Positions 25,225 through 61,310 of a stretch of DNA of 64,000 nucleotides are shown here, piece by piece (the first letter of the stretch is position 1; every line of letters begins with the position of its first letter). The stretch is taken from NCBI RefSeq assembly GCF_009914755.1, contig NC_060926.1. The stretch is one strand, 5' to 3'. Below the pieces are notes generated by a model. It had not been told where the DNA came from. It ran no database searches and saw nothing but the letters and a program-made list of their open reading frames with translations. Source of the stretch: the human T2T-CHM13v2.0 reference genome, Homo sapiens. The translations under genes and the position numbers were made by a program.

Positions 25225-25410
25225 CTCTTCAGGCAGTTCACTGTACATGGTTTCAGAGGTAGACAATAAAAATATAGGTGAAAATGATGGTATATCTTGT
25301 AGCAATGTCAGAAAAGTTGCTCTCACAGTTTCACTGACAGCTTCCCACCAATCCCCAATGTGAGGCATGTAAACAATACTAGGTACTGTTCTTCGAGCTT
25401 CACGAAAAAT
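25225..25410 (-). CDS. ATAD2B: ATAD2B coding exon: AAA2 (IFREARRTVPSIVYMPHIGDWWEAVSETVRATFLTLLQDIPSFSPIFLLSTSETMYSELPEE)
   Basis: ttccttaattag acceptor, GAG|gtaaga donor; 186 nt, phase 0-0; manual translation. Confidence 0.96.
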
Positions 25411-26377
25411 CTAATTAAGGAAAAAAACCAACATTAAACAACTCAAATTGATTATTCTAAAGTCTACCCAGTAATCTCCAAATACATGAAATATGTCAGG
25501 CCTATTATGGTCATTAGTTTCAGCCTCAAAATTTAAGTTCAAGATATGATGCACAAGCCTTACACAGCTTCAATCTACCCTTGCCCCACCAAAAAAAAAA
25601 AAAGTATGTTTTGCCCTATCAAAAAAAAAAGTATGTTTTGCCCTTTAATTATTCCTATTCAGTATATATTAACAGTGGAAGGTATCAAATTGCTCCACTT
25701 ATCTAGCATGTAAAGATAATAAAGCAAAACACCACTGTAAAATATGCTGCAAATAAAGAGATAAACATACACCTATGGCACTCATGTGATATCAGTAAAC
25801 TTTACAAAAAGAACAACAACATAGTTTACATTTTTGAGCACCTTGACTAAAATCATACAATATATAATCATTTTAACCAAGATGTACCACCCTAGAGCTT
25901 AAAATTAATGAACTACTTGCTGAAACAGTCATTCACCTCCTCCCATTATCTTAGTTCAATATTTTATAAAATAGTCACAAAATACTCTAACTTATCTAAA
26001 GAGCAAATGATAGCAAAGAGCTCTGCGACACTTCCATTGTCAGAAAATACAGAATGAATTTTTCCTCAGGTGTTAAAAAGTCTTAACCATAGTTTCAATC
26101 ACGCTCTGCCAACACACACCAATAGGGACCAGGTTGGCTATTAGTAAGCTGCCAAGCTGAATTAATGTCCCTTACTTATTAAGTCAACAGTTTAATATCC
26201 CACCAACAAATTCTGACATGTTAATAGGACATTTCTCATTATCTTTAACAAGTTTAATTATAAAAATCTTTCTTCCATTTTGAGAATTCTATTCCTAAAA
26301 TGCTCGACTTATTTTCCCTTATTTTTAACACATTTCAATTAGCCTATGTAATATACAAGATATAGAAATAAGAATTT

Positions 26378-26686
<309 letters not shown>

Positions 26687-28530
26687 ATTTAATATTTAAA
26701 ATGATTGGGATTATCGGAAACTATCCTAAGAATCAAGTATTATTTTTCTTTAATGAGTAAGCTTACCACTTGCATACATTTTTTAAATAGTGTATTTTAT
26801 ACAGCTTTCAACCTTCTGTGTAAAATAAAAGGTACTGCCAATTCAATAATAAACCAGATGAAAGAAGCTCAAATAATAATTGGAAAAAATGTAGATGTTA
26901 TGATCACTCACATCAAAAGTAATATTTGCTCCTTCCCTTCCTTAATATTTGCATATCCACCAATCCAGAACAGTTGTACAGTACAACTCCTTCAGGACTC
27001 TCAAATTTTGACCTTTTCTGCAAACACGTACCCTCCTATCCTGGATCTTGGAAATCCAAGGATTATTTTTTTCCAAAGTTCTTGTAGAAAATTCATAAGA
27101 GAAAAACAAGCATAAATATTGGCAAAAGGAAAGAACCATGCAGAAGCACAAAGGCAACTGAGGCACTTATTTAAAAAAAAAAAAAATTACATGCCACCCA
27201 AATCAGGCATGGTTACATGGAAGACAGTGACCAACTCCTTTTGTCACTTTCCAGTTCCCCACTCTGTGCTGGTAAAACAAGAAAGAGTCAGCAAGGAAAC
27301 AAAGGTGATCATATGAAAGACTAACCAGCTATAGGTTACTAAGAAACCTCACAAAGCCAATCACTTAATTCAGCCATGCAAGCTACCACATACATGCCCA
27401 GGGTATGAGAGAGATAGGAAAACATGCCTTTAAAAAAATGAAATTTTGCCTTTCATTCTAGTACTTCTAGGTTAGATTTTCCAGGAACATGTGTTGAGAA
27501 CATCTAGCCATTAACAAGTATCAAAGAGGATGAGCAAAGCAACAGAAGGTTAAGTGATAACAATTTGACAGAGTCAGAAGTTAACTACAGGTGTCTTAAC
27601 TGTATTTGCAAGGGTGAACTACATACAATCATCACCAGCTCTAAGAGTTGAGGTTTGTTTTTTTCTGTTTCTTTTTTTCCTCCAATTGTCTCAAAATTAA
27701 CATGATATTGAACTCAAATTGAACATGATGTTGTATTGACCCCATTAAAAAATTTAGAAATTTGTCCACATTTCCAAAAAATTTCTTATTTTCATCTCAT
27801 CTTCTCAAAATTAACAAATTGAACATGATATCCTAGTGATCCAATTAAAAAAAAAATCTCGAAGCTTTTTACTTCCAAAGCCTTTAGGAAAATGTCCTTC
27901 TTGATTAAAAAAAAAATTTATATTTGAAAACCTATTGGGGAAAAAAATCAGGCAAGTCTAAGATGAACATGGAAAAATAAAAAGGCTTCGCCTTTCTGAT
28001 CTATGAGTGTATAATTACATGAATTGAGAATTAACCTAACTACATGAAATACCAACATCTATGAAATATTTTTGTAATTTTTCTCCTAAGTCTTTAGAGG
28101 AAAACCATCCTTAATTTCTACAAAAACTAAAAAGCACTATTAAAACAAGCTTTCTTTTAAATTCCTTATTCTATGTTATCTCAGAATATTAAAATAAACT
28201 TTTATATTTTCTTTAGATTTATAACCAGTCTGTTCTAATTCCCATTTTGTAATAAAAATTCAAAAAGAACAGAGTTTGAGAATAGCATTTAAAAATTCTT
28301 ATAGTATAAGCAACAGGAAAAAAAAAAGTTTAATACTATTATGATTTTTTTCTGTAATATAAAAACAGCTCTTCAGCAGTTTGCTGGTAACTTTTAAAGT
28401 GTGGAGTAAAATACACTCTGTGAAATCAAATACCAGATAATTCAGAGTAGAAAAATATAGCCTAGTTTCAATGAAGCGGCAACTGGCTTGGGAACAAGTG
28501 ATGCCATTTGAGAACTAGAAAAATACTCAC

Positions 28531-28584
28531 CTATAGGGTGTCTTGGATTGGTGGATGTGCAAGGTGTAGTAGAAAACAGAAAAA
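28531..28584 (-). other. Candidate poison cassette exon (54 nt, last codon TAG)
   Basis: long T-run + ctataacag acceptor, TAG|gtgagt consensus donor; phase-0 translation FFCFLLHLAHPPIQDTL*. Confidence 0.55.
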
Positions 28585-30399
28585 CTGTTATAGAAAAAAA
28601 AAAAGACAGTAGGCCAAATTACTGAACCAACCGTTTCAAAATACCTCTGACATGACCAGCACTCTTGCACAAGTAAAATGAACAAATACCAGCATATGTG
28701 AACTGTTCATTTTGATTCTTTATTACAACATTATACTCCATTTCCTTCTGACCTCCTTCTTGCCACAGACATCATAAGGACCTTAGATAACTAATTTTTT
28801 TAAAACTTTCTTTATTAAAAAAAAATCACAAACTACTTCCTCTAAATATTAAAGATATTAAAGGCAAAAATCAGGCCATTGAAGTTAGAAGTATCCATCC
28901 AAGGAAGCACTCATGATATAACTCTTGCACTTACAAGAGTTCTAATCATCTCAAAAGCTAAACTTTGAAGTCAGCATTTTAGCCATGAAATTAAAATGTT
29001 CCATCCATGAAAATCTAGTGTATTTTTAAACTAAGAATTTATAGTCCCACAACAAGCCATTTCCTTTAGAAATTGAAAACTAGAAAAATTTTAAACCCAA
29101 ATGTGAATGAAGCAGAAAGCTCAAAGCCAGTATCACTTTTACCTGCCTAAAGAGGGCAATATAGAAAAGAGGGAAACAAATTTGTGTCATCAAGAAACTT
29201 CCAGAACTTGTCTCAATCACTTAATAGTATTATAAATATATTAAAATTATAAAGCACAGGTAAAAGAAAAATGTTGGGAGCTAAAACATCCTCAATATTT
29301 ATAAAAATTAAAAGGCACTAATAAATAAGTTTAATTCTTTGTGCCATGCTATCAGAAATTATTAAAATAAATAACATCTGTGCATTGCTGGTGGCTTTAT
29401 TCCATTTTTATCCCTTTACTCTATTTATATTCCCTTCATATAAGATTTATTGAGAATCTCTTGTGAAAAGAAGGCACTGTCTGGATTCTAAAGATTCAGG
29501 ATTCAATAAATAAGGTACAAATTTCTTTACATGCACATAAAATCAGCCTGTTATAAAACACACCTGTACTAGTTTCTGAACTATGGTAGTAACACAAATT
29601 AGCATTTTATGAAAATTAAATCACTTAAATTCTTTTTCTAATATTTTCATTCCCTAAGGACTTCAAGAATTTCAGTAAATGTGACACACTCCAGGTCAGG
29701 ATAATTTAACTTGTCTACAACTCAAAAAAAAAAAAAATTTAAGAAGTGTTGCTATGGAAAAAGTCAGATATCCATGTGAGCAAACACAAAAGCATCCAAA
29801 ATATACACAGACTGCTACAGAGAAATCCAGAAATCTATAAGCACAAACACAAGAGCAACCGAAGTATACACACAGGTAAGTACATTATTAATACTTTCAT
29901 GCTATTCAACCAAAAAGAATTTCCCCTGTGAAATTCCAGATAACAATTTCTTTCTGGGGAAAGAAATGCATTTAAATTTTCACCAAGAAAAGACCTTATT
30001 CACCTTTTGAAATTATTCCCAACACCACACAGTACATAAACTCCAAAGCTTTTCAGACCATATATAAATGTATTAATTGAATGAAACCTCTCTAATAATT
30101 AAAAAGATAAAATATAGCACGCTTATCAGTCCCTTTTTTCTAAATCAACAATAGAAATATACAGGAGGCAAAAATTATATTTGAGGATGTCAGAAAAAGA
30201 GAATCATAGTTTTGTTTTGTTTTTTAAGAGTGTTAATACCAAAGGTCTTTTACTACCGATATTAACATCTCCTGCCTTGTTGTAGGACTCAGTAATTACT
30301 TGTGAACTTAAGGGGGCAACTATAAATCTTCCAGGCTATACCAAGGGTTCTCATTCTCCTTCCAAAGCTGACTGTGAAATGCTCAGTAACATATGTGTG

Positions 30400-30433
30400 T
30401 ACACACACACACACACACACACACACGCGCACG
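30400..30433. repeat. (CA)n microsatellite
   Basis: direct reading. Confidence 0.9.
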
Positions 30434-30509
30434 CATTTGTTTCAGTAATAAATGTTGGACTAATGTCTAGTGACCAGCTAAAGTACTATAGCTCAAAGTG
30501 AGAGCTATT

Positions 30510-30672
30510 GAAAACCTAGAATAGTAATATCTGAGATGCATTTTTACAAAGTACAGATTCCTGGGACTCATTCCAAATTGAGTGAATCACAATCTATGGG
30601 TGTGGAGCCAGAAAATCAGAAATTTGTGTAAGTACACTCAGGTGATTCTTATGCACACTAAATCTTAAGAAA
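30510..30672. mobile_element. MER5-like hAT relic
   Basis: cagattcctgg...caggtgattcttatgcacactaaa. Confidence 0.6.
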
Positions 30673-31944
30673 CAATAAGAAAAACATTGCTTTTTAATAT
30701 AGTTGACACTAACTCTGCCATTTTTCACTCCAATTGATAATATTAATCAATAGCTGAATCCGTCAGAAGGAGAAAAGAAAGTTCTGTCATGTATATTCTT
30801 GTGCATGTATGTTTTAAAGGATAGACATAAAATGAAACATGATCCCCACAGTATAAACAATATCAAGTAGGGTCTCCCACCTTACCACGCATATACATAC
30901 AGCCCTTTAAAAGTGATTTAAGATTCCCTTTAAGACTGCCTTTCATGTTCATGTTACACTACTAAATACCAAACTTAATTTATATTAAGCATTTTAGAGC
31001 CTGGGGAAAAGAGAAAACATGCAAGAATAACTTACCACAGACTAAACCCTTATATTACACATCGATTTAGAGAGATACCTCTGAGTATAGGAGGACTAGC
31101 TGCCAAGAAAGGTGAAGCAAAAAGGAAGAACCAAAAAGGAATATAGAACAGAAGAAAAGAGAATCTTTTTCAATCTTTCCAGTGTTTCAGCACCTGACTC
31201 ATGCACTCTCTTCCCTAGCGCTTTTGTACCCACTTATAACCTGGTTTGCCAACCTTTACCAATTATTTAAAAATTCCTCTTACATTATGTAACAGCTTCT
31301 TCTTGCCGAATTTGTTAGCAAAGATAGTGTTATATTTATGAATGTAAAATAATTTTAAATATGCACTTAAGACACATATAATCACAGATTAGCCAAGACA
31401 TCTGGTCTCTGGCCAGTGTTCAGATAGAGGGTGGGTGTCTGCTATCATGACTGCACTTCATGGCTCGTCCTGGCAGACTGCCTATCCAGGAGGGGTCACT
31501 CTAGAGTAAGCTCGACTTCTAACCCAGAAGCTCTTAGGTATAAACTCAGAAGATGAGATGCCTTAATGTACTAGAGAAAGTGAAATACAACCAAAATGAT
31601 AGTGAGTTTTCATTGTTTTTCACTACCAAGTGACACCTCTCTCCTTCCCACCAAAACAAAAAAGTAGTAAAAGCCAAGAAGCGTACAAGAGACCAGAGGA
31701 TGAAGTTAGAATTCAAAGTTGGCCAAGCAGGATTCAGAATCATGCCACGAAAAAAATCAGGAAAAAAAAAAAAAACCCTATAACATCAATATATAGTTCA
31801 CTACAATGCTTCCTAAGTGTTTCCTTACCTTTACTTAAATAACATTAAACCAGTAATGTTTGTGAATATATATACAAATTAACCATAAGGAACAACTATA
31901 AACAAAAATAAAAAAACCTTTCTCACTTTGAAAATATTTCTCTT

Positions 31945-32258
<314 letters not shown>

Positions 32259-32439
32259 ATATTTCTCTTTCAAAGTGATTTTTTTCATCTTTAGCTTGCT
32301 TGATACAGTCAAATAAAAACTTCAAAAAAGAGAATTTTCTAAACAGTATAGCATAAACTAAAAAGGCAAGGTTCACACATTTCCCAATCTTCCAGATTCC
32401 TTCTCCCCAAGCCAAAGCAACCATATTAACAGTTTTTGA

Positions 32440-33790
32440 GAATACTTGCTTTTTTCACTAATGTCACCTGCATTTTTCAGCCCATGTAAATCTATCTCAT
32501 TCATGTTAATGGCTAGACAGTACTCCTTTGTATGTCAAGATACACCATAACTAATTTTAGCTGGTCCCACGTGAAGGGATATTCAGTTTGTTTGCCTTTA
32601 TGTTTCGTGTGGCAATTACACACGACACAGTGACAAATATCCTTGTTCATTTAGCAATGAATACTTGTAGCTAACGTATCTTTAGGAAAAATTCCTAAAC
32701 ATAGAATTCCTGGGTCAAAAGGTATATGTATTTGAAATGTTATTTTCTTTTCTCACACTACACCAATGTGGTACTTGAAATTTTAAAAGATGGTGCCAAA
32801 TTACACTCCAAAAACATCAAATAAATTTACATTTCCACTAAGTCTAAGCAGTCCACATCTCCAAATGGCATTATCAAGCTTTAAAAAAAAAAAAAAAAAA
32901 AAAAAAACAAATCTGATACTTTATTTTCACTTAAGTGAAGCTTAGAATCTTTTCACATTTTTATTGGTTACTTTTTATTTTCCCCCATAAATAGCATGTT
33001 TCTATTTTGCCAATTTTTATATTAGATTGCTATTCTTTCTTCTTACTGATTTTAAGGTATTTGCCCATATTTAGAAAACTTGTTCTCAACATATCTGCTA
33101 CAAATATACTTTTTCCCAGACTATATCTATTAATTTAATCTAAAGAATGCTTTTTGCCATGTGCAATTTAAAATTTTATATAATCAAATTCCTTCATATC
33201 TTTATGTTTTCTAGTTTTTGTGCATTGCTTAGAAATTACTTTCACACATAAGATAATAAATATACTGACCTTGTGAATTTTTCCAGTACTTTTATAGTTC
33301 CACTGCCCATGTAGAGTTTATTTTGGGCTACAGAAAAAAGTAGGAAATCCCAGTTTTATTTGTTTTGCTTTTTCCCCTACTGGAGGAGCTTGCCAGTTTT
33401 CCAAGACCATTTGGTAAATAATCCATTTCTTCCATCTACTGATATGAAATGTCATCGCCATTGTGGTCATAACCATCAAATTCTACTTCTACACAAGTCT
33501 AAGCATGAATAGTCTCTTCTGTTCTATTACTTTGTCTACTCTTGCACAGGCATACTTTCTTTATTACTGTAACTCTATTACACCCTTACAATTTTGGTAG
33601 GGCCCCCTAATGACACTTTTTCCTCTAGAATTCTCCTTGCTACTCTCATATTTATTTTCTAGAAGAAACAGAACTCTTTTTTTTTAACTTCTCCCCCTAA
33701 GTTTTGAGGAGATTATAATTAGAACTGTACTTAATTTATACATTAATTTAGGAAAAAACCTCACAGCCTTTGAATTTAAAGTCTTACCAT
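32440..33790 (-). mobile_element. Highly diverged L1 (L1ME-like)
   Basis: agaattcctgggtcaaaaggtat and T-rich antisense L1 character. Confidence 0.55.
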
Positions 33791-34673
33791 TCATTAGCTG
33801 TAAGCAGTAGCAGTGGCAGCAATGGTAGTAGTAATAAGCACGATTATAACTAACTTTCATTGAGGACTATATGTCAAGCCTATTTGATAACCTCATGGTG
33901 TCATCTCCATTTCACAGATGAGAAAATTAAGGCTCAGAGTGTTAAGCAACTTGCCCAAGTCACAACCACAACTGAGATTTTAATCTGCATAATTTGACTT
34001 GAGTCTACATTCTGAACTAAAGAAATTTAGCACAGTAATTACAAACAAAGTGTGCTTCTTCCTCTAAAGCTCCACATATTAACACAACATTATCATTAGT
34101 ATGAAGTCACCATAAGTATTCTAGCCAGGCATGGCTCTCTCTATGCAGATGACACTGTGAAGTATTCACTGAGATATGCCCATCCCAAATCCCCAGACTT
34201 TCTTGTTCCTATATAGTGGTTCACTCCCAATGCAGAGATCTGGAGCAATGATCAGATCATGGGAGCTGAGAGTAAGAGGTGATGAGAATATTGACATTTA
34301 ATTGATATCTAAAGCAGAAAAAACATCTAAGCTTTGCTATTTACTAATATAAAGATTAATAGTAGTGTGTACACACACATGCACACACATACACACACTA
34401 GAAAGAAGTACATTCACATATGGAGTTGAACGCTCAACAGATTTTTAACTGCCCAATCAAATACATTTGAAATTTATCTATGTAGAACATTCCAAACCTC
34501 TTGCCTCAAAAGAGTTGATCAGAAGACTGAAGATAACAAACAAAATTCTTCGCTTTTGGTTTACAACATAAGCTCCTGAGATCTCAAGGTAGAGATTTTA
34601 GTTTCAGACAACCAAATTTTGAAGTCTACAAGCTTGGTTTGAGACCCAAATGCCAAATCTCTAAAGATACTTC

Positions 34674-35452
<779 letters not shown>

Positions 35453-37524
35453 TAGGGATATGGGAAGAATACATGAGACTAGCCCAGCTCTGGCCTCCTT
35501 AATAAAGATGGCTTCTTCCCCCAGCCAAGAAGATTGATGATACTATGAAAGGCAGAGAGCATTCCTGGTGGGAGACTTCTCTGGCCTTTGGGTTTGGAAA
35601 CAAACAAATAAGGTATGTCTTTCATATATTCAACTGTCCCCCTCAGCAACTTTTAGTTTTCTTCTCATAGTCCCTTCATATTGTTTCTGCTAATTCCTAC
35701 GTAAACTTAGTTGCTATTTCAATTGGGACCTCTTCTTCCATTATATTTCTAACTTATTATAGTATTTATAAGAGAAAACTATCATTTTAAAACACTAACT
35801 TTGAAAGTGTCCACCTTATGGAATTTCTTTATTGTCTTACATCATTTTTTAGTTGACACTGTAAGTTTTCCATATAATTAATCACATCATAGGCAAATAC
35901 TTACAAATTCAGTGTATCCTTTCCAATACTTAGATCTCTCAATGTCTAACTGAATTAATCTTGCATGCTTTAGTAATGTTATATTATTCTTTTGATGTGC
36001 TACTAGATTTCATTTGTAATAGTTTCTTTATGAACATTGCTGAAATGAGATTGGTCTACAGTTTTATTTTGTATTTCCCTGAAAGATGTGATATTGTTGA
36101 TTTTGCCAATTTCACAGCTTTCCTCCTATTCCTATGCTTTTGGAACAGTGTGACTAGCATCAAAATGATCTTATCCTTTAAGATTAAAATAATTCACCTG
36201 TGAAACCATCTATGTTTAGTGGTTTTAAGATACTTGCTGAATTTCTTCTTCCACAGTGATTGTTTAGATTCTCTCTTCTCTGGGGTCAATTTTGTTGATT
36301 TATATTTTTCTACTAAATCATTTGTATTTATTTTAAATGGTACTGAGTAATTCTTTTACTTGCATACAACCTGCAGTAATTTTGTCTAAAAAGAAAAATA
36401 TGAGCAAACATATAAATCAACATTATTGGAAAACACACCCAGGATGAGTTAAATGTGTCAAACTGGGAGCAAAATACTGGTAGATAGCATTTAATTCAAG
36501 GGTTTTGGAAAGAAACCTTTAAATAGGGCTTTAAAAGTGATGAAGTGCTGGTAGGGTGTTCATATCCAGAGAACTGTGAGTAAAAGAGAAACTAAATCAA
36601 TACTACTATGAACTGTTTAAAAAATGCATATTTCTTGCTACAATGTAGGAAATGGCTTTCAGTTAGATAATTACAGTATATGTGTTAAGTATTCGGAAAA
36701 TGTAACTGGGAAAAAAACAACAAAATTGTGTGAAATGTTTTAAGTGTTACTACTCCAGTTATTTAACTCTAAAAGTAGGCTAAGTATCGAAGTACAAAGT
36801 GGCATTCCTCTCTCTAACTTATTTATTTGAAACATTATTATTCAAACATTTAATGACCACTTACTATCAGCTAGACACCTTGTCAGAGTTACAAAAATGG
36901 CTTAGATATGGTCCCTTGGCTCAAAAAATGTATTAACCTCATCCCTAGTTTCAATATGACATAATATATCCATGGTTATATATAACAACCTCAAGAAATA
37001 TAAACAGCCCCACTAGAACTTTGCTTCACAAACCAGTAAATACAAAATAGTTGAAAATCAAATGTCAAATACACAACTGTCAACACAAATATCTATAATT
37101 TTTGAACTGCTATCACTATTCTAATATGAATATTAAATCCTGATTATCTCAAATTGGATATAATTTCCCTTTCTATGATAAGGCTCTAAGAAAAGACAGA
37201 AGTCTGAAACTGCTCTGAGACCACAACTTTGAACAGAGGGTCAGAAAAAGGCAAAATAAACTCCCTTTCTACAATGCATAATGACACAGGGTATTAAAAT
37301 TTCAGTAAGGAGGATCATGAGAAAGACAATGAGCTCACTTAAAAAACTGTATGCATCAAAAGGATCCTTTACACTAATACTAGAATGCTAATGAATAATC
37401 AACAAAAAGTTAATATTCATATCGTACTCTGAAAAAATCTTATCTTTAACACTACACACTAGAAATACTACCAAATTATAAGCAATAAGAAAGTTGGAAG
37501 TGCTCTGATGTGGTACAAACCTAC

Positions 37525-37711
37525 CTGTGCACATGATTCCTCAGGTGTTTTGGCACTAACTGAATAAAGTGCTGGGAGATCTAGTCTATGCACAGAGAAT
37601 CTTTCTAGAGTGTGCAAAAGTGCTGGAGCAAGGTGAGAAGTTTGACCTGAGCCCCGTTCTCCAGAGAGCAATAAGCGTGGCCTGTAAGAGGTTGGCTGAT
37701 GATATGGTGAC
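37525..37711 (-). CDS. ATAD2B: ATAD2B coding exon: AAA2 degenerate Walker A (SPYHQPTSYRPRLLLSGERGSGQTSHLAPA...TPEESCAQ)
   Basis: attacag acceptor, CAG|gtaggt donor; 187 nt, phase 2 to 0; ORF 37468..37752. Confidence 0.96.
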
Positions 37712-56079: not shown

Positions 56080-56170
56080 CAACACATTTTTCAGCCAATT
56101 CACCTAAAAATGCATCTGACAATTTTGGATTCCAGTCCCTGGTATGGATCTGTAAGATGTGTTTTCTTGC
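56080..56170 (-). CDS. ATAD2B: ATAD2B coding exon (ARKHILQIHTRDWNPKLSDAFLGELAEKCV)
   Basis: catcttag acceptor, TTG|gtgagt donor; 91 nt, phase 0 to 1, in frame with neighbours. Confidence 0.96.
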
Positions 56171-59877: not shown

Positions 59878-61150
59878 TCTAAACCTTGTTTACTGTTAAA
59901 CCCTTGATTTGTGTGAACTGAACCTGGACTGTAAGGGCTGTGATTGGCATATAGACTCTGAGGCCTACTTAGCTAAGATAGTACAGAAGACAAATGGGAA
60001 ATCAAGGAAATGGCTTTCCTGTGCTGTGTCTCAGAACTAAGCACATTTCCCCATGTACTGAAGAGTATAAAAGCTGTGCTTGGACTGTTGTTAGATGTCC
60101 CAAACAAAAAAGCTGATGCTTCCCCATGTGGAAGTAGACTGTACCTACTTCAGCCCTATCTACTACAAATAAACACACCAATATGCACTGATACATTCCT
60201 GAAGGCTGCACTTGGGCAATGAAAATAATGCTGTATATGCTATGTTTCCTGTCCTGACAAAGCTAAATAACCTGGTGCCAATTTAAAGCCTGTAAATTGA
60301 ATTGTCAATCCAAATCTGAGTCAACTACTGGTGACTGTGGAGACTGATGTCAAACTGAGGTATGAACTGCTCTACACAGGGAAGCCATTGCCTTTGTTTC
60401 TCTATGGTCTTCCATACAGTCCGAATCACTTAAGACTTTCACAACTAGGTATGTAAACCAGGCATTTCACATAGAGGTCCAAAAACAAAGCTATACATAT
60501 TCACATACAGTACCTCCTTTGCATGTATCTCTTCCTCTCAAATTTGAGTTTCTAATGAAAAGCCAGTCAGATTATACTAGTCAAACCAAGAATAATATTA
60601 AAAGTTTGAAGTTGAATTGGGAAAAAAAAAATTTGTATATCATATAACATTTACAGAATCAATGATAAACATTACCCTGTATTATTAGTACATTCTTTTA
60701 AAAAAACTTTATACCATAATGAATAAAGTTTGTTGCTTTTAATTAAATATAGCAATTTCTATGAAAATTCAGGTACTGAGTCCTTATTCATAAACCCACT
60801 AATACTCTATAAAAACATTATTTTATGAGAATAAAGTTACTTTGGCTAACTAGGGACACAGAAACTGCCATACAGGACAATTACTACAATCTGGAGAACT
60901 AAAGCACAAGTAAGCATCTACAGTGATCTATCAAGAGCTTTCCTCTTGCTGCCTAAAAATCACAAACTTTCTTATAATTGTTAATAGAAAAAAACTGTTC
61001 CATAATTACATAGGTTTTTAAAGCATTAGATAAGATATCCTTAAGCAGAAAATCTGAACAATGAAAATTCATAAAATATCACCCTCAGAACATATGCCTT
61101 ATAGTAGAATTACATATAAATGTTAACATATTGAAAACAAAAACTCTTAC

Positions 61151-61310
61151 CTTTTGATCAGGCAGGTTGAAGAGGAATTCTCTGTCAAAACGACCAGGTC
61201 TCCTGAGTGCAGGATCTATAGAGTCAAGTCTGTTTGTAGCACCAATAACAACAATTTCACCCCTATTATCTAATCCATCCATAAGAGCAAGGAGGGTTGA
61301 TACTATAGAG
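61151..61310 (-). CDS. ATAD2B: ATAD2B coding exon: AAA1 second region of homology ([53 protein letters not shown])
   Basis: tattttacag acceptor, AAG|gtaaga donor; 160 nt; AAA sensor-1/arginine-finger motif [20 protein letters not shown]. Confidence 0.97.

What the first reader, a model, noticed from the sequence alone, without database searches (positions are those of the whole stretch)
26949..28600. 54-nt stop-terminated poison-exon candidate with a 19-nt complementary box 1.6 kb downstream
Seen: on minus, a long U tract + ctataacag acceptor, 54 nt, then TAG|GTGAGT (28584-28531). It lies in the phase-0 intron inside AAA2 and reads FFCFLLHLAHPPIQDTL*. Exon bases 28544-28562 (UUGCACAUCCACCAAUCCA in the pre-mRNA) are reverse-complementary at 18 of 19 positions to 26949-26967 (13 bp contiguous + 5 bp, one C-A mismatch). 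Both lie in a roughly 5-kb tract (26700-31900) where I see almost no interspersed repeats. Known: cassette exons with premature stops trigger NMD and tune chromatin-regulator dosage, and long-range intronic pairing can control exon choice. Inference: a long-range duplex masks the exon and loops out its donor, acting as an RNA-structure switch on ATAD2B output.
Basis: partly seen in the sequence, partly recalled or inferred. Interest (0 to 1): 0.8.

Follow-up and report, generated by a model that had tools for sequence, protein, structure and literature searches.

The report
ATAD2B poison exon with complementary partner
A short, already annotated stop-carrying exon of the human ATAD2B gene can pair almost perfectly with a stretch of the next stop-carrying exon 1.6 kb downstream, which may tune how much working ATAD2B message is made, though only sequence statistics and folding predictions support this.

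Summary
The 54-nt exon (28584-28531, minus strand) has an 11-U tract, a CAG acceptor, a TAG|GTGAGT donor and a phase-0 in-frame stop. It coincides exactly with a RefSeq alternative exon in the hub table, so the exon itself is not new.

The 18-of-19 complement (28562-28544 with 26967-26949) is real and predicted at -27.9 kcal/mol.
- No dinucleotide shuffle of the exon matches it: 0 of 1000 against the intron, 0 of 5000 against exon B.
- The motif occurs only at these two places in the 3.1-Gb genome.
- It forms with probability about 1 in 1.8-1.9-kb global folds.

It lies inside the next annotated alternative exon (27080-26913), which also carries in-frame stops.

A second unusual pair (28731-28703 / 28272-28244, 25 of 29) brackets the exon, but it is unstable in long folds.

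There is no repeat family, no extended homology and no Rfam family. Conservation, expression, NMD sensitivity and in vivo pairing could not be tested.

Best reading (0.45): a genuine pre-mRNA duplex coupling two neighbouring poison exons, most likely repressing exon A. The main rival is a coincidence with no effect (0.38). This kind of control has been shown for BRD2/BRD3. Interest is moderate.

The parts
28531..28584 (-). Exon A: 54-nt cassette exon with 17 codons and an in-frame TAG as its last three bases. It is an annotated RefSeq alternative exon.
   Evidence: hub gene table
28585..28605 (-). 3' splice site of exon A: an 11-U tract, then CTATAACAG
28525..28530 (-). 5' splice site of exon A: GTGAGT directly after TAG
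28544..28562 (-). Box A: the C/A-rich core of exon A, 22 nt from the acceptor and 13 nt from the donor
26949..26967 (-). Box B: reverse complement of box A at 18 of 19 positions, with an A at 26954 opposite the C at 28557. The core duplex is predicted at -27.9 kcal/mol.
26913..27080 (-). Exon B: annotated alternative exon that contains box B. It reads NFGKK-stop in phase 0. The acceptor is TTTTCTACAAG. A GTGAGT starts at 26911, one base beyond the annotated end.
   Evidence: hub gene table
28703..28731 (-). Upstream arm of a second inverted pair, in the intron 119 nt before exon A's acceptor
28244..28272 (-). Downstream arm of the second pair, 258 nt after exon A's donor. The arms match at 25 of 29, at -23.9 kcal/mol, and would loop out exon A in a 430-nt loop. 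The pair crosses the A-B duplex.
25345..25354 (-). Box C: a 10-mer identical to the core of box B, inside the constitutive exon 56 nt after its acceptor, in the codons for G-D-W-W. It is a weaker possible partner of box A (-21.1 kcal/mol).
37525..37711 (-). Upstream constitutive coding exon, ending in phase 0
25225..25410 (-). Downstream constitutive coding exon

Best explanation
Exon A (28584-28531) is a genuine, already annotated cassette exon of ATAD2B. It inserts 17 codons and a stop between the two exons coding for the second AAA module. Its inclusion therefore gives an unproductive, NMD-prone message.

Its C/A-rich core pairs in the pre-mRNA with a 19-nt box 1.6 kb downstream. That box lies inside the next annotated unproductive exon, B (27080-26913). 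I take this duplex to be real and to act on splicing.

Proposed mechanism. The duplex turns the middle third of a very short exon into double-stranded RNA, 13 nt from its donor. This would deny the exon the single-stranded enhancer contacts it needs for exon definition. Exon A, and probably B with it, is then skipped, and the productive 37525-to-25410 junction is made. When exon A is defined before box B has been transcribed and paired, it is included and the message is lost.

Shown here: the sequences, the frame, the rarity of the match, and its stability in folding models.

Inferred: pairing in vivo, the direction of the effect, NMD, and any regulatory use.
For: Exon.
- Consensus splice sites and an in-frame TAG.

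Rarity of the match.
- 0 of 1000 and 0 of 5000 dinucleotide shuffles reach it.
- The next best score of the exon anywhere in the window is 13, against 18.
- The 19-mer pattern occurs exactly twice in 3.1 Gb, both times here, with 0 hits for the control pattern.
- Exon A is the outlier among the 12 exons compared. Its exon-versus-6-kb score is 18, against 10-16 for the others apart from exon B's reciprocal hit. Its flank-to-flank score is 21, against 10-17.

Partner. It falls in an independently annotated exon that makes up about 1.4% of the intron.

Stability.
- The core duplex is -27.9 kcal/mol.
- It is the best of 243 sliding windows of the intron: -40.5 against a mean of -18.7 (sd 6.6), next best -35.0.
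- Pair probabilities are 0.78-1.0 for 18 pairs in global folds of 1781 and 1921 nt. They fall to 0 when box B is shuffled.

Not a repeat.
- Both regions are single copy.
- No homology extends beyond 24 nt.

Precedent. Poison exons of BRD2 and BRD3 are controlled by complementary regions, shown by minigene mutagenesis and antisense oligonucleotides (PMC10789245, abstract read).
Against: - No conservation, expression, NMD or structure-probing data could be consulted, so function rests on statistics and equilibrium folding only.
- Global folding of about 2 kb of naked RNA ignores proteins and kinetics.
- The helices that the MFE adds next to the core are no better than composition gives: 54 of 500 shuffled-flank controls reach the observed energy.
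- Both arms are exonic, unlike the intronic arms of the described BRD2/BRD3 cases.
- The match was picked post hoc from a 64-kb read, and theory expects roughly 0.4 such pairs within 2 kb per window of this size (my estimate, not a call).
- The intron holds four annotated stop-carrying exons. This also fits low-level splicing noise.
- No paper links ATAD2B to a poison exon or to RNA structure.
Confidence: 0.45

Rival explanations
1. Exon A is a real but low-level unproductive exon. The 18-of-19 complement is a coincidence, or the product of a neutral local mutation such as a short template switch. It has no measurable effect on splicing in cells.
For: - The pair was found post hoc in 64 kb.
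- Similarity stops abruptly after 19-24 nt.
- The flanking helices are not significant (54 of 500).
- Four annotated stop-carrying exons in one intron fit splicing noise.
- There is no literature support.
- Nascent RNA is coated by proteins, so a 19-bp helix over 1.6 kb need not form (established knowledge).
Against: - Shuffles: 0 of 1000 and 0 of 5000.
- The next best score of the exon in the window is 13, against 18.
- The partner lies in an independently annotated exon covering about 1.4% of the intron.
- Exon A is also bracketed by a second unusual pair: 0 of 1000 shuffles and 8 of 1000 pseudo-exons reach its score.
Confidence: 0.38
2. The duplex promotes co-inclusion rather than skipping. 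It brings A's donor (13 nt from the helix) next to B's acceptor (113 nt from it) and speeds removal of the 1.45-kb intron between them. A and B are then used together as a two-exon poison module. Their use may even be the reason both were annotated.
For: - The geometry.
- Both arms lie in annotated exons (hub table).
- The duplex is stable in folds.
- Pairing that shortens the distance between a 5' splice site and the branch or 3' site is known to help splicing (recalled).
Against: - It is unknown whether any transcript holds both exons, because the hub table gives no per-transcript structure.
- The helix would bury 19 of exon A's 54 nt.
- The annotated end of exon B (26913) is not at a donor.
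Confidence: 0.1
3. Box A is a docking site with two competing selectors: the strong box B and the weak 10-nt box C in the constitutive exon. Each selector lies shortly after an acceptor. The pairing chosen decides which acceptor exon A's donor uses.
For: - The 10-mer occurs three times in the window, all within 3.2 kb and in these three exons.
- The core of exon A pairs best with the exon 25225-25410 among the nine constitutive exons: -22.9 against -8.3 to -16.8.
- The selectors lie 113 and 56 nt after their acceptors.
Against: - Box C is fixed by the codons for G-D-W-W; the W-W is shared with ATAD2.
- A 10-mer match has roughly 0.8% chance under a uniform model (my estimate).
- B and the constitutive exon are not homologous (79 of 300 shuffles reach their score) and are not mutually exclusive exons.
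Confidence: 0.04
4. The two arms are remnants of an inverted pair of transposable-element copies, or a DNA-level pair of inverted CCAAT-type protein-binding sites, with no RNA role.
For: - Inverted repeats in human introns mostly come from transposable elements (established knowledge).
- The box holds a CCAAT core (read; the motif name is recalled).
Against: - The pattern occurs only twice in the genome.
- Both regions are single copy.
- No homology extends beyond 24 nt.
- A DNA-site reading gives no reason for both arms to be exonic.
Confidence: 0.03

Closest known systems
BRD2 exon 3b and BRD3 exon 5b: poison exons controlled by pairs of conserved complementary regions (PMC10789245, abstract read)
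   Same: A stop-carrying cassette exon in a bromodomain-protein gene, with long-range complementary boxes predicted to set its inclusion and a proposed link to elongation kinetics.
   Different: - In BRD2 and BRD3 the arms are intronic and conserved, and their effect was shown by mutagenesis and antisense oligonucleotides.
- Here both arms of the strong pair lie in two neighbouring annotated poison exons.
- Here conservation and effect are untested.
Long-range pre-mRNA structures found by RIC-seq and shown to affect splicing (PMC10573301; search listing and start of the abstract only)
   Same: Kilobase-range pairing within one pre-mRNA as a determinant of exon choice.
   Different: - No proximity-ligation evidence was seen for this pair.
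Docking-site/selector competition in mutually exclusive splicing (Dscam exon 6 type; recalled, no call)
   Same: One box (A) with two same-sense partners (B and C) placed shortly after alternative acceptors.
   Different: - The partners are exonic.
- One partner is only 10 nt long and is dictated by coding.
- The exons concerned are neither homologous nor mutually exclusive.
Inverted Alu pairs that loop out exons or drive back-splicing (recalled)
   Same: Inverted complementarity within one intron.
   Different: - The arms are unique in the genome and only 19-24 nt long.
- The three Alu-type elements seen in this intron (26373-26708, 31893-32296, 34669-35350) all give plus-strand signal-recognition-particle-RNA (Alu-type) Rfam matches and lie outside the pair.

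Membership tests
Poison (stop-introducing) cassette exon coupled to NMD | Usable 3' and 5' splice sites bounding the exon | tested here: met
   An 11-U tract, then CTATAACAG, and TAG followed by GTGAGT. The same coordinates are an exon in the hub's RefSeq table.
Poison (stop-introducing) cassette exon coupled to NMD | In-frame premature stop on inclusion | tested here: met
   Phase 0 after 37525; 17 codons, then TAG.
Poison (stop-introducing) cassette exon coupled to NMD | Stop more than 50-55 nt upstream of a later exon-exon junction | tested here: met
   The next constitutive exon is 186 nt long, so its downstream junction lies 186 nt after the stop (hub table). The rule itself is established knowledge.
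Poison (stop-introducing) cassette exon coupled to NMD | Isoform rises when NMD is blocked, and inclusion lowers gene output | not testable with these tools
   No RNA-seq access. PMC6744440 lists ATAD2B among miR-24-3p targets derepressed on UPF1 knockdown, through its 3'UTR and not through this exon (passages).
[quoted passage not shown] | Stable complementary pair within one pre-mRNA | tested here: met
   18 of 19 positions, -27.9 kcal/mol. Pair probability is about 1 in 1.8-1.9-kb folds.
[quoted passage not shown] | Conservation and compensatory substitutions across species | not testable with these tools
   No vertebrate genome other than the window's own was available. The paralogue comparison was dropped.
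[quoted passage not shown] | Arms in the introns flanking the regulated exon | tested here: not met
   Both arms of the strong pair lie in annotated exons (hub table). The weaker pair 28731-28703 / 28272-28244 does meet this feature.
[quoted passage not shown] | Inclusion changes on disruption and is restored by compensatory mutation | not testable with these tools
   This is a bench experiment.
Docking-site/selector mutually exclusive splicing | Two or more selectors competing for one docking site | tested here: inconclusive
   Box B pairs at -33.2 and box C at -21.1 kcal/mol with the same core. Box C is only 10 nt and is fixed by coding.
Docking-site/selector mutually exclusive splicing | Homologous, mutually exclusive exon variants | tested here: not met
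   No similarity between exon B and the constitutive exon beyond chance (79 of 300 shuffles reach the score).
Inverted pair of interspersed repeats | Arms belong to a multi-copy family and homology extends over the element | tested here: not met
   - The pattern occurs twice in 3.1 Gb.
- The regions are single copy.
- The arm of the second pair is unique at up to 3 mismatches.
- The alignment ends after 24 nt.
- The tool warns that very common words are skipped, so old diverged repeats are not excluded.

The most novel reading that the evidence does not exclude
Two neighbouring poison exons of ATAD2B are zipped together by exon-to-exon pairing. A weaker second partner sits in the constitutive exon, and an alternative early stem sits in the flanking introns. 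Together these would form a transcription-order-dependent device. It would decide whether exon A's donor is silenced, joined to exon B or joined to the constitutive exon, and so set the dose of a bromodomain AAA+ ATPase. The A opposite C in the helix (26954) would be a natural ADAR target that could lock the duplex.
Probability: 0.07. Interest if true: 0.7.

Novelty: new member of a known kind. Interest (0 to 1): 0.4.

Why it matters
- ATAD2B is a little-studied bromodomain AAA+ chromatin factor. My searches found no description of how its dosage is controlled.
- If the duplex acts, it would add a second bromodomain-gene family, after BRD2/BRD3, in which RNA structure gates unproductive splicing.
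- It would be an unusual case in which both arms are exonic and link two poison exons.
- It would give a concrete antisense target (26949-26967) that lies outside exon A and could shift ATAD2B output.
- If the duplex does not act, the locus is a useful warning: an 18-of-19 match that beats every shuffle can still be inert.

Tried and rejected
1. Transposable-element origin. The regions around both boxes, and the whole 5.2-kb tract, are single copy in the genome. The 19-mer pattern has only these two hits. The arm of the second pair is unique at up to 3 mismatches.

2. Extended homology between exon A (reversed), exon B and the constitutive exon. Nothing extends beyond the 24-nt core. B against the constitutive exon: 79 of 300 shuffles reach the score. 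Reversed A against the constitutive exon: 114 of 300.

3. A longer composite helix. The MFE adds two helices: the polypyrimidine tract of exon A with a purine tract of exon B (28605-28592 with 26929-26942), and 28522-28506 with 26989-27006. The energy gain is no better than shuffled flanks of the same composition (54 of 500). It beats real intronic flanks only modestly (11 of 500). I do not count these helices.

4. A clean two-state switch between the flanking-intron stem and the A-B duplex.
- The stem has probability about 0.63 in a 601-nt snapshot and 0.0 once box B is present.
- It is already down to 0.03 in an 1801-nt snapshot that lacks box B.
- It stays at 0.03 when box B is shuffled.
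- The switch is therefore not supported by the folding model.

5. Known RNA families. Rfam at E up to 1 gave only Alu-type matches outside the pair, a few microRNA-like hits inside those Alus, and one weak AniS match (E 0.49, below its gathering score) at 34354-34466.

6. Coding potential on either strand. Two ORFs of 120 and 65 aa overlap exon B. Neither has a Pfam match.

7. Pfam on the single flanking exons gave no AAA hit.

8. Comparison with the paralogue ATAD2 in the same genome was not done. The one query I sent was not accepted, and I dropped the step.

The paper reader closed. As a result the supplements of PMC10573301 and the text of PMC10789245 beyond its abstract were not seen. A catalogue of complementary regions or RIC-seq contacts there may bear on this pair.

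10. The one supplementary file held for PMC11632617 does not mention ATAD2B.
Full report
**What is there**

The minus strand carries ATAD2B. At 28604-28594 there is a run of 11 T, then CTATAACAG. A 54-nt segment runs from 28584 to 28531 and ends in TAG, followed directly by GTGAGT.

The upstream coding exon 37711-37525 ends in phase 0, and the downstream exon 25410-25225 begins in phase 0. The open frame across the two is continuous. With the 54 nt inserted, it reads 17 residues and a stop.

The flanking exons align to contiguous residues 384-442 and 443-504 of the human ATAD2 chain 8h3h_A.

The hub's RefSeq table lists an alternative exon with exactly these coordinates. The exon is therefore real as an annotation and not new.

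**The complement**

28562-28544 and 26967-26949 are reverse-complementary at 18 of 19 positions: 13 contiguous, a C opposite an A, then 5. With looser scoring this becomes 21 of 24. Nothing further aligns in 500-nt contexts.

Spliced after 37525, that exon reads five residues and a stop. The pairing thus links two neighbouring unproductive exons.

All four annotated alternative exons of this intron bring an in-frame stop.

**Chance**

- Dinucleotide shuffles of exon A never reach the observed ungapped score of 18. Against the real interval 25225-37711 it is 0 of 1000 (maximum 17). Against exon B alone it is 0 of 5000 (maximum 16).
- Against every 2-kb block of the window, in both orientations, the exon's next best score is 13.
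- Among the 12 exons compared in the window, exon A has the highest exon-versus-6-kb score: 18, against 10-16 for the others apart from exon B's reciprocal hit.
- Less extreme controls exist. 1 of 300 mononucleotide shuffles reached the gapped score between the two local contexts.
- 207 of 1500 random 54-mers reach 18 within 6 kb. Scores up to 46 show these are mostly interspersed repeats.
- By Karlin-Altschul reasoning (my estimate, not a call), about 0.4 such pairs within 2 kb are expected per 64-kb window. What is rare is where this pair sits, not that a pair exists.

**Not a repeat**

- The 19-mer pattern, with the mismatch position left open as a purine, occurs twice in the 3.1-Gb genome. 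Both occurrences are here, and the control pattern has none.
- 321 nt around exon A, 401 nt around exon B and the whole 5184-nt tract 26709-31892 match only themselves, apart from one marginal 46-nt hit.
- Rfam sees Alu-type sequence only at 26373-26708, 31893-32296 and 34669-35350.
- The tool warns that common words are skipped, so old diverged repeats are not excluded.

**Stability**

- The core duplex is predicted at -27.9 kcal/mol.
- It is the best of 243 sliding 150-nt windows of the intron: -40.5 against a mean of -18.7 (sd 6.6), with the next best at -35.0.
- In global folds of 1781 and 1921 nt it is part of the MFE, with pair probabilities of 0.78-1.0 for all 18 pairs. It vanishes when box B is shuffled.
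- The additional helices that the MFE builds next to it are no better than composition allows (54 of 500 shuffled flanks).

**A second pair**

I listed all inverted matches within 2 kb in the window. There were 357 with score 17 or more. Of these, 23 lay outside the 20 listed masked stretches and passed an entropy filter.

By my reading of the printed sequences, most of the 23 are Alu-like or AT-rich. That labelling is by eye. Three are left at score 18 or more, and two of the three touch exon A.

The new pair is 28731-28703 with 28272-28244. It matches at 25 of 29, at -23.9 kcal/mol, and brackets the exon in a 430-nt loop. No shuffle reaches its score (0 of 1000). 8 of 1000 pseudo-exons elsewhere in the window do, all from one other locus. 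Its arm is unique in the genome at up to 3 mismatches.

This pair crosses the A-B duplex, so the two exclude each other in a nested fold. It has probability about 0.63 in a 601-nt snapshot. It falls to only 0.03 in an 1801-nt snapshot without box B, and stays at 0.03 when box B is shuffled. I therefore do not claim a switch between the two.

**A third, weak partner**

The 10-nt core of box B recurs once more in the window, at 25354-25345 in the constitutive exon, 56 nt after its acceptor. There it encodes G-D-W-W; the W-W is shared with ATAD2.

Among the nine constitutive exons, this one pairs best with the core of exon A: -22.9 against -8.3 to -16.8. This may be chance.

**Mechanism**

I favour a repressive duplex. 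A 54-nt exon depends on single-stranded enhancer contacts. The helix buries its middle third 13 nt from the donor, so exon A (and probably B) would be skipped and the productive junction made.

The same geometry also brings A's donor close to B's acceptor, so co-inclusion is a live rival. Which holds depends on whether A and B occur in the same transcripts, and the table given to me does not say.

NMD of the inclusion isoform follows from the 50-55-nt rule (established knowledge), with the next junction 186 nt after the stop. It was not observed.

**Literature**

- No paper in the library holds ATAD2B together with 'poison exon', or with 'RNA structure' and 'splicing'.
- The searches with nonsense-mediated decay, NMD, cryptic exon and exon inclusion returned three papers. 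I read passages of two of them; the third, PMC10931094, I saw only in the search listing.
- In the broader five-term search, none of the 15 papers listed contains ATAD2B.
- One of the two papers read is a table row for a TDP-43-dependent 63-nt exon of mouse Atad2b (PMC6440020, passage). I could not map it to this intron.
- The other is a study of ATAD2B as a UPF1-dependent miR-24-3p target through its 3'UTR (PMC6744440, passages).
- The closest precedent is BRD2/BRD3 (PMC10789245, abstract).
- The paper reader closed. Supplements that may list complementary regions or RIC-seq contacts for ATAD2B were not seen.

**Verdict**

- The exon is already annotated.
- The complement is real, rare and stable in silico. 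It is more interesting than described, because it joins two poison exons.
- Function is unproven.
- If it acts, it is a new member of a known kind. Interest is 0.4.

Noticed in passing
window 30401-30426: (AC)13 on the plus strand, which is (GU)13 in the ATAD2B pre-mRNA, lies 1.8 kb upstream of exon A. UG repeats are TDP-43 binding sites (recalled). A table in PMC6440020 lists a TDP-43-dependent 63-nt exon in mouse Atad2b. Whether the two are related could not be checked.
   Followed up: no
window 59981-60023 and 60375-60417: This is the strongest non-Alu inverted pair within 2 kb in the window: 43 nt, score 23, RNAduplex -42.2 kcal/mol. It lies in the intron between exons 61151-61310 and 56080-56170. 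Its origin and role are unknown.
   Followed up: partly
window 26906-26913: The annotated low end of exon B is 26913, but a perfect GTGAGT starts at 26911. A spliced exon would therefore end at 26912. The bases after 26913 are TG, not GT. The annotated exon is probably the truncated end of a transcript model.
   Followed up: partly
window 25324-25410 and 25340-25410: The hub table lists two exon variants that end inside the constitutive exon, at 25340 and 25324. By my reading, no GT follows either end. They look like transcript ends. 25340 lies 5 nt past the 10-nt box C.
   Followed up: no
window 33270-33327 and 35457-36385: The two other annotated alternative exons of the same intron also bring in-frame stops: after 11 residues and after 9 residues. 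The 58-nt exon has good splice sites. The 929-nt exon has an acceptor but no donor, and it ends next to an AT-rich tandem array at 34929-35446.
   Followed up: partly
window 26954 (opposite 28557): The only mismatch of the duplex is an A in box B opposite a C in box A, with a U on its 5' side. As I recall, this is the context ADAR prefers. Editing there would make the helix perfect. This is not tested.
   Followed up: no
window 26753-27115 (+) and 26942-27139 (-): ORFs of 120 aa (antisense to the gene) and 65 aa overlap exon B. Neither matches a Pfam family at E up to 1. They are probably chance.
   Followed up: yes
window 26929-26942: A purine-rich tract in exon B lies 7 nt downstream of box B. 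The MFE pairs it with the polypyrimidine tract of exon A's acceptor (28605-28592). The pairing is compositionally easy and not significant against shuffled flanks.
   Followed up: yes
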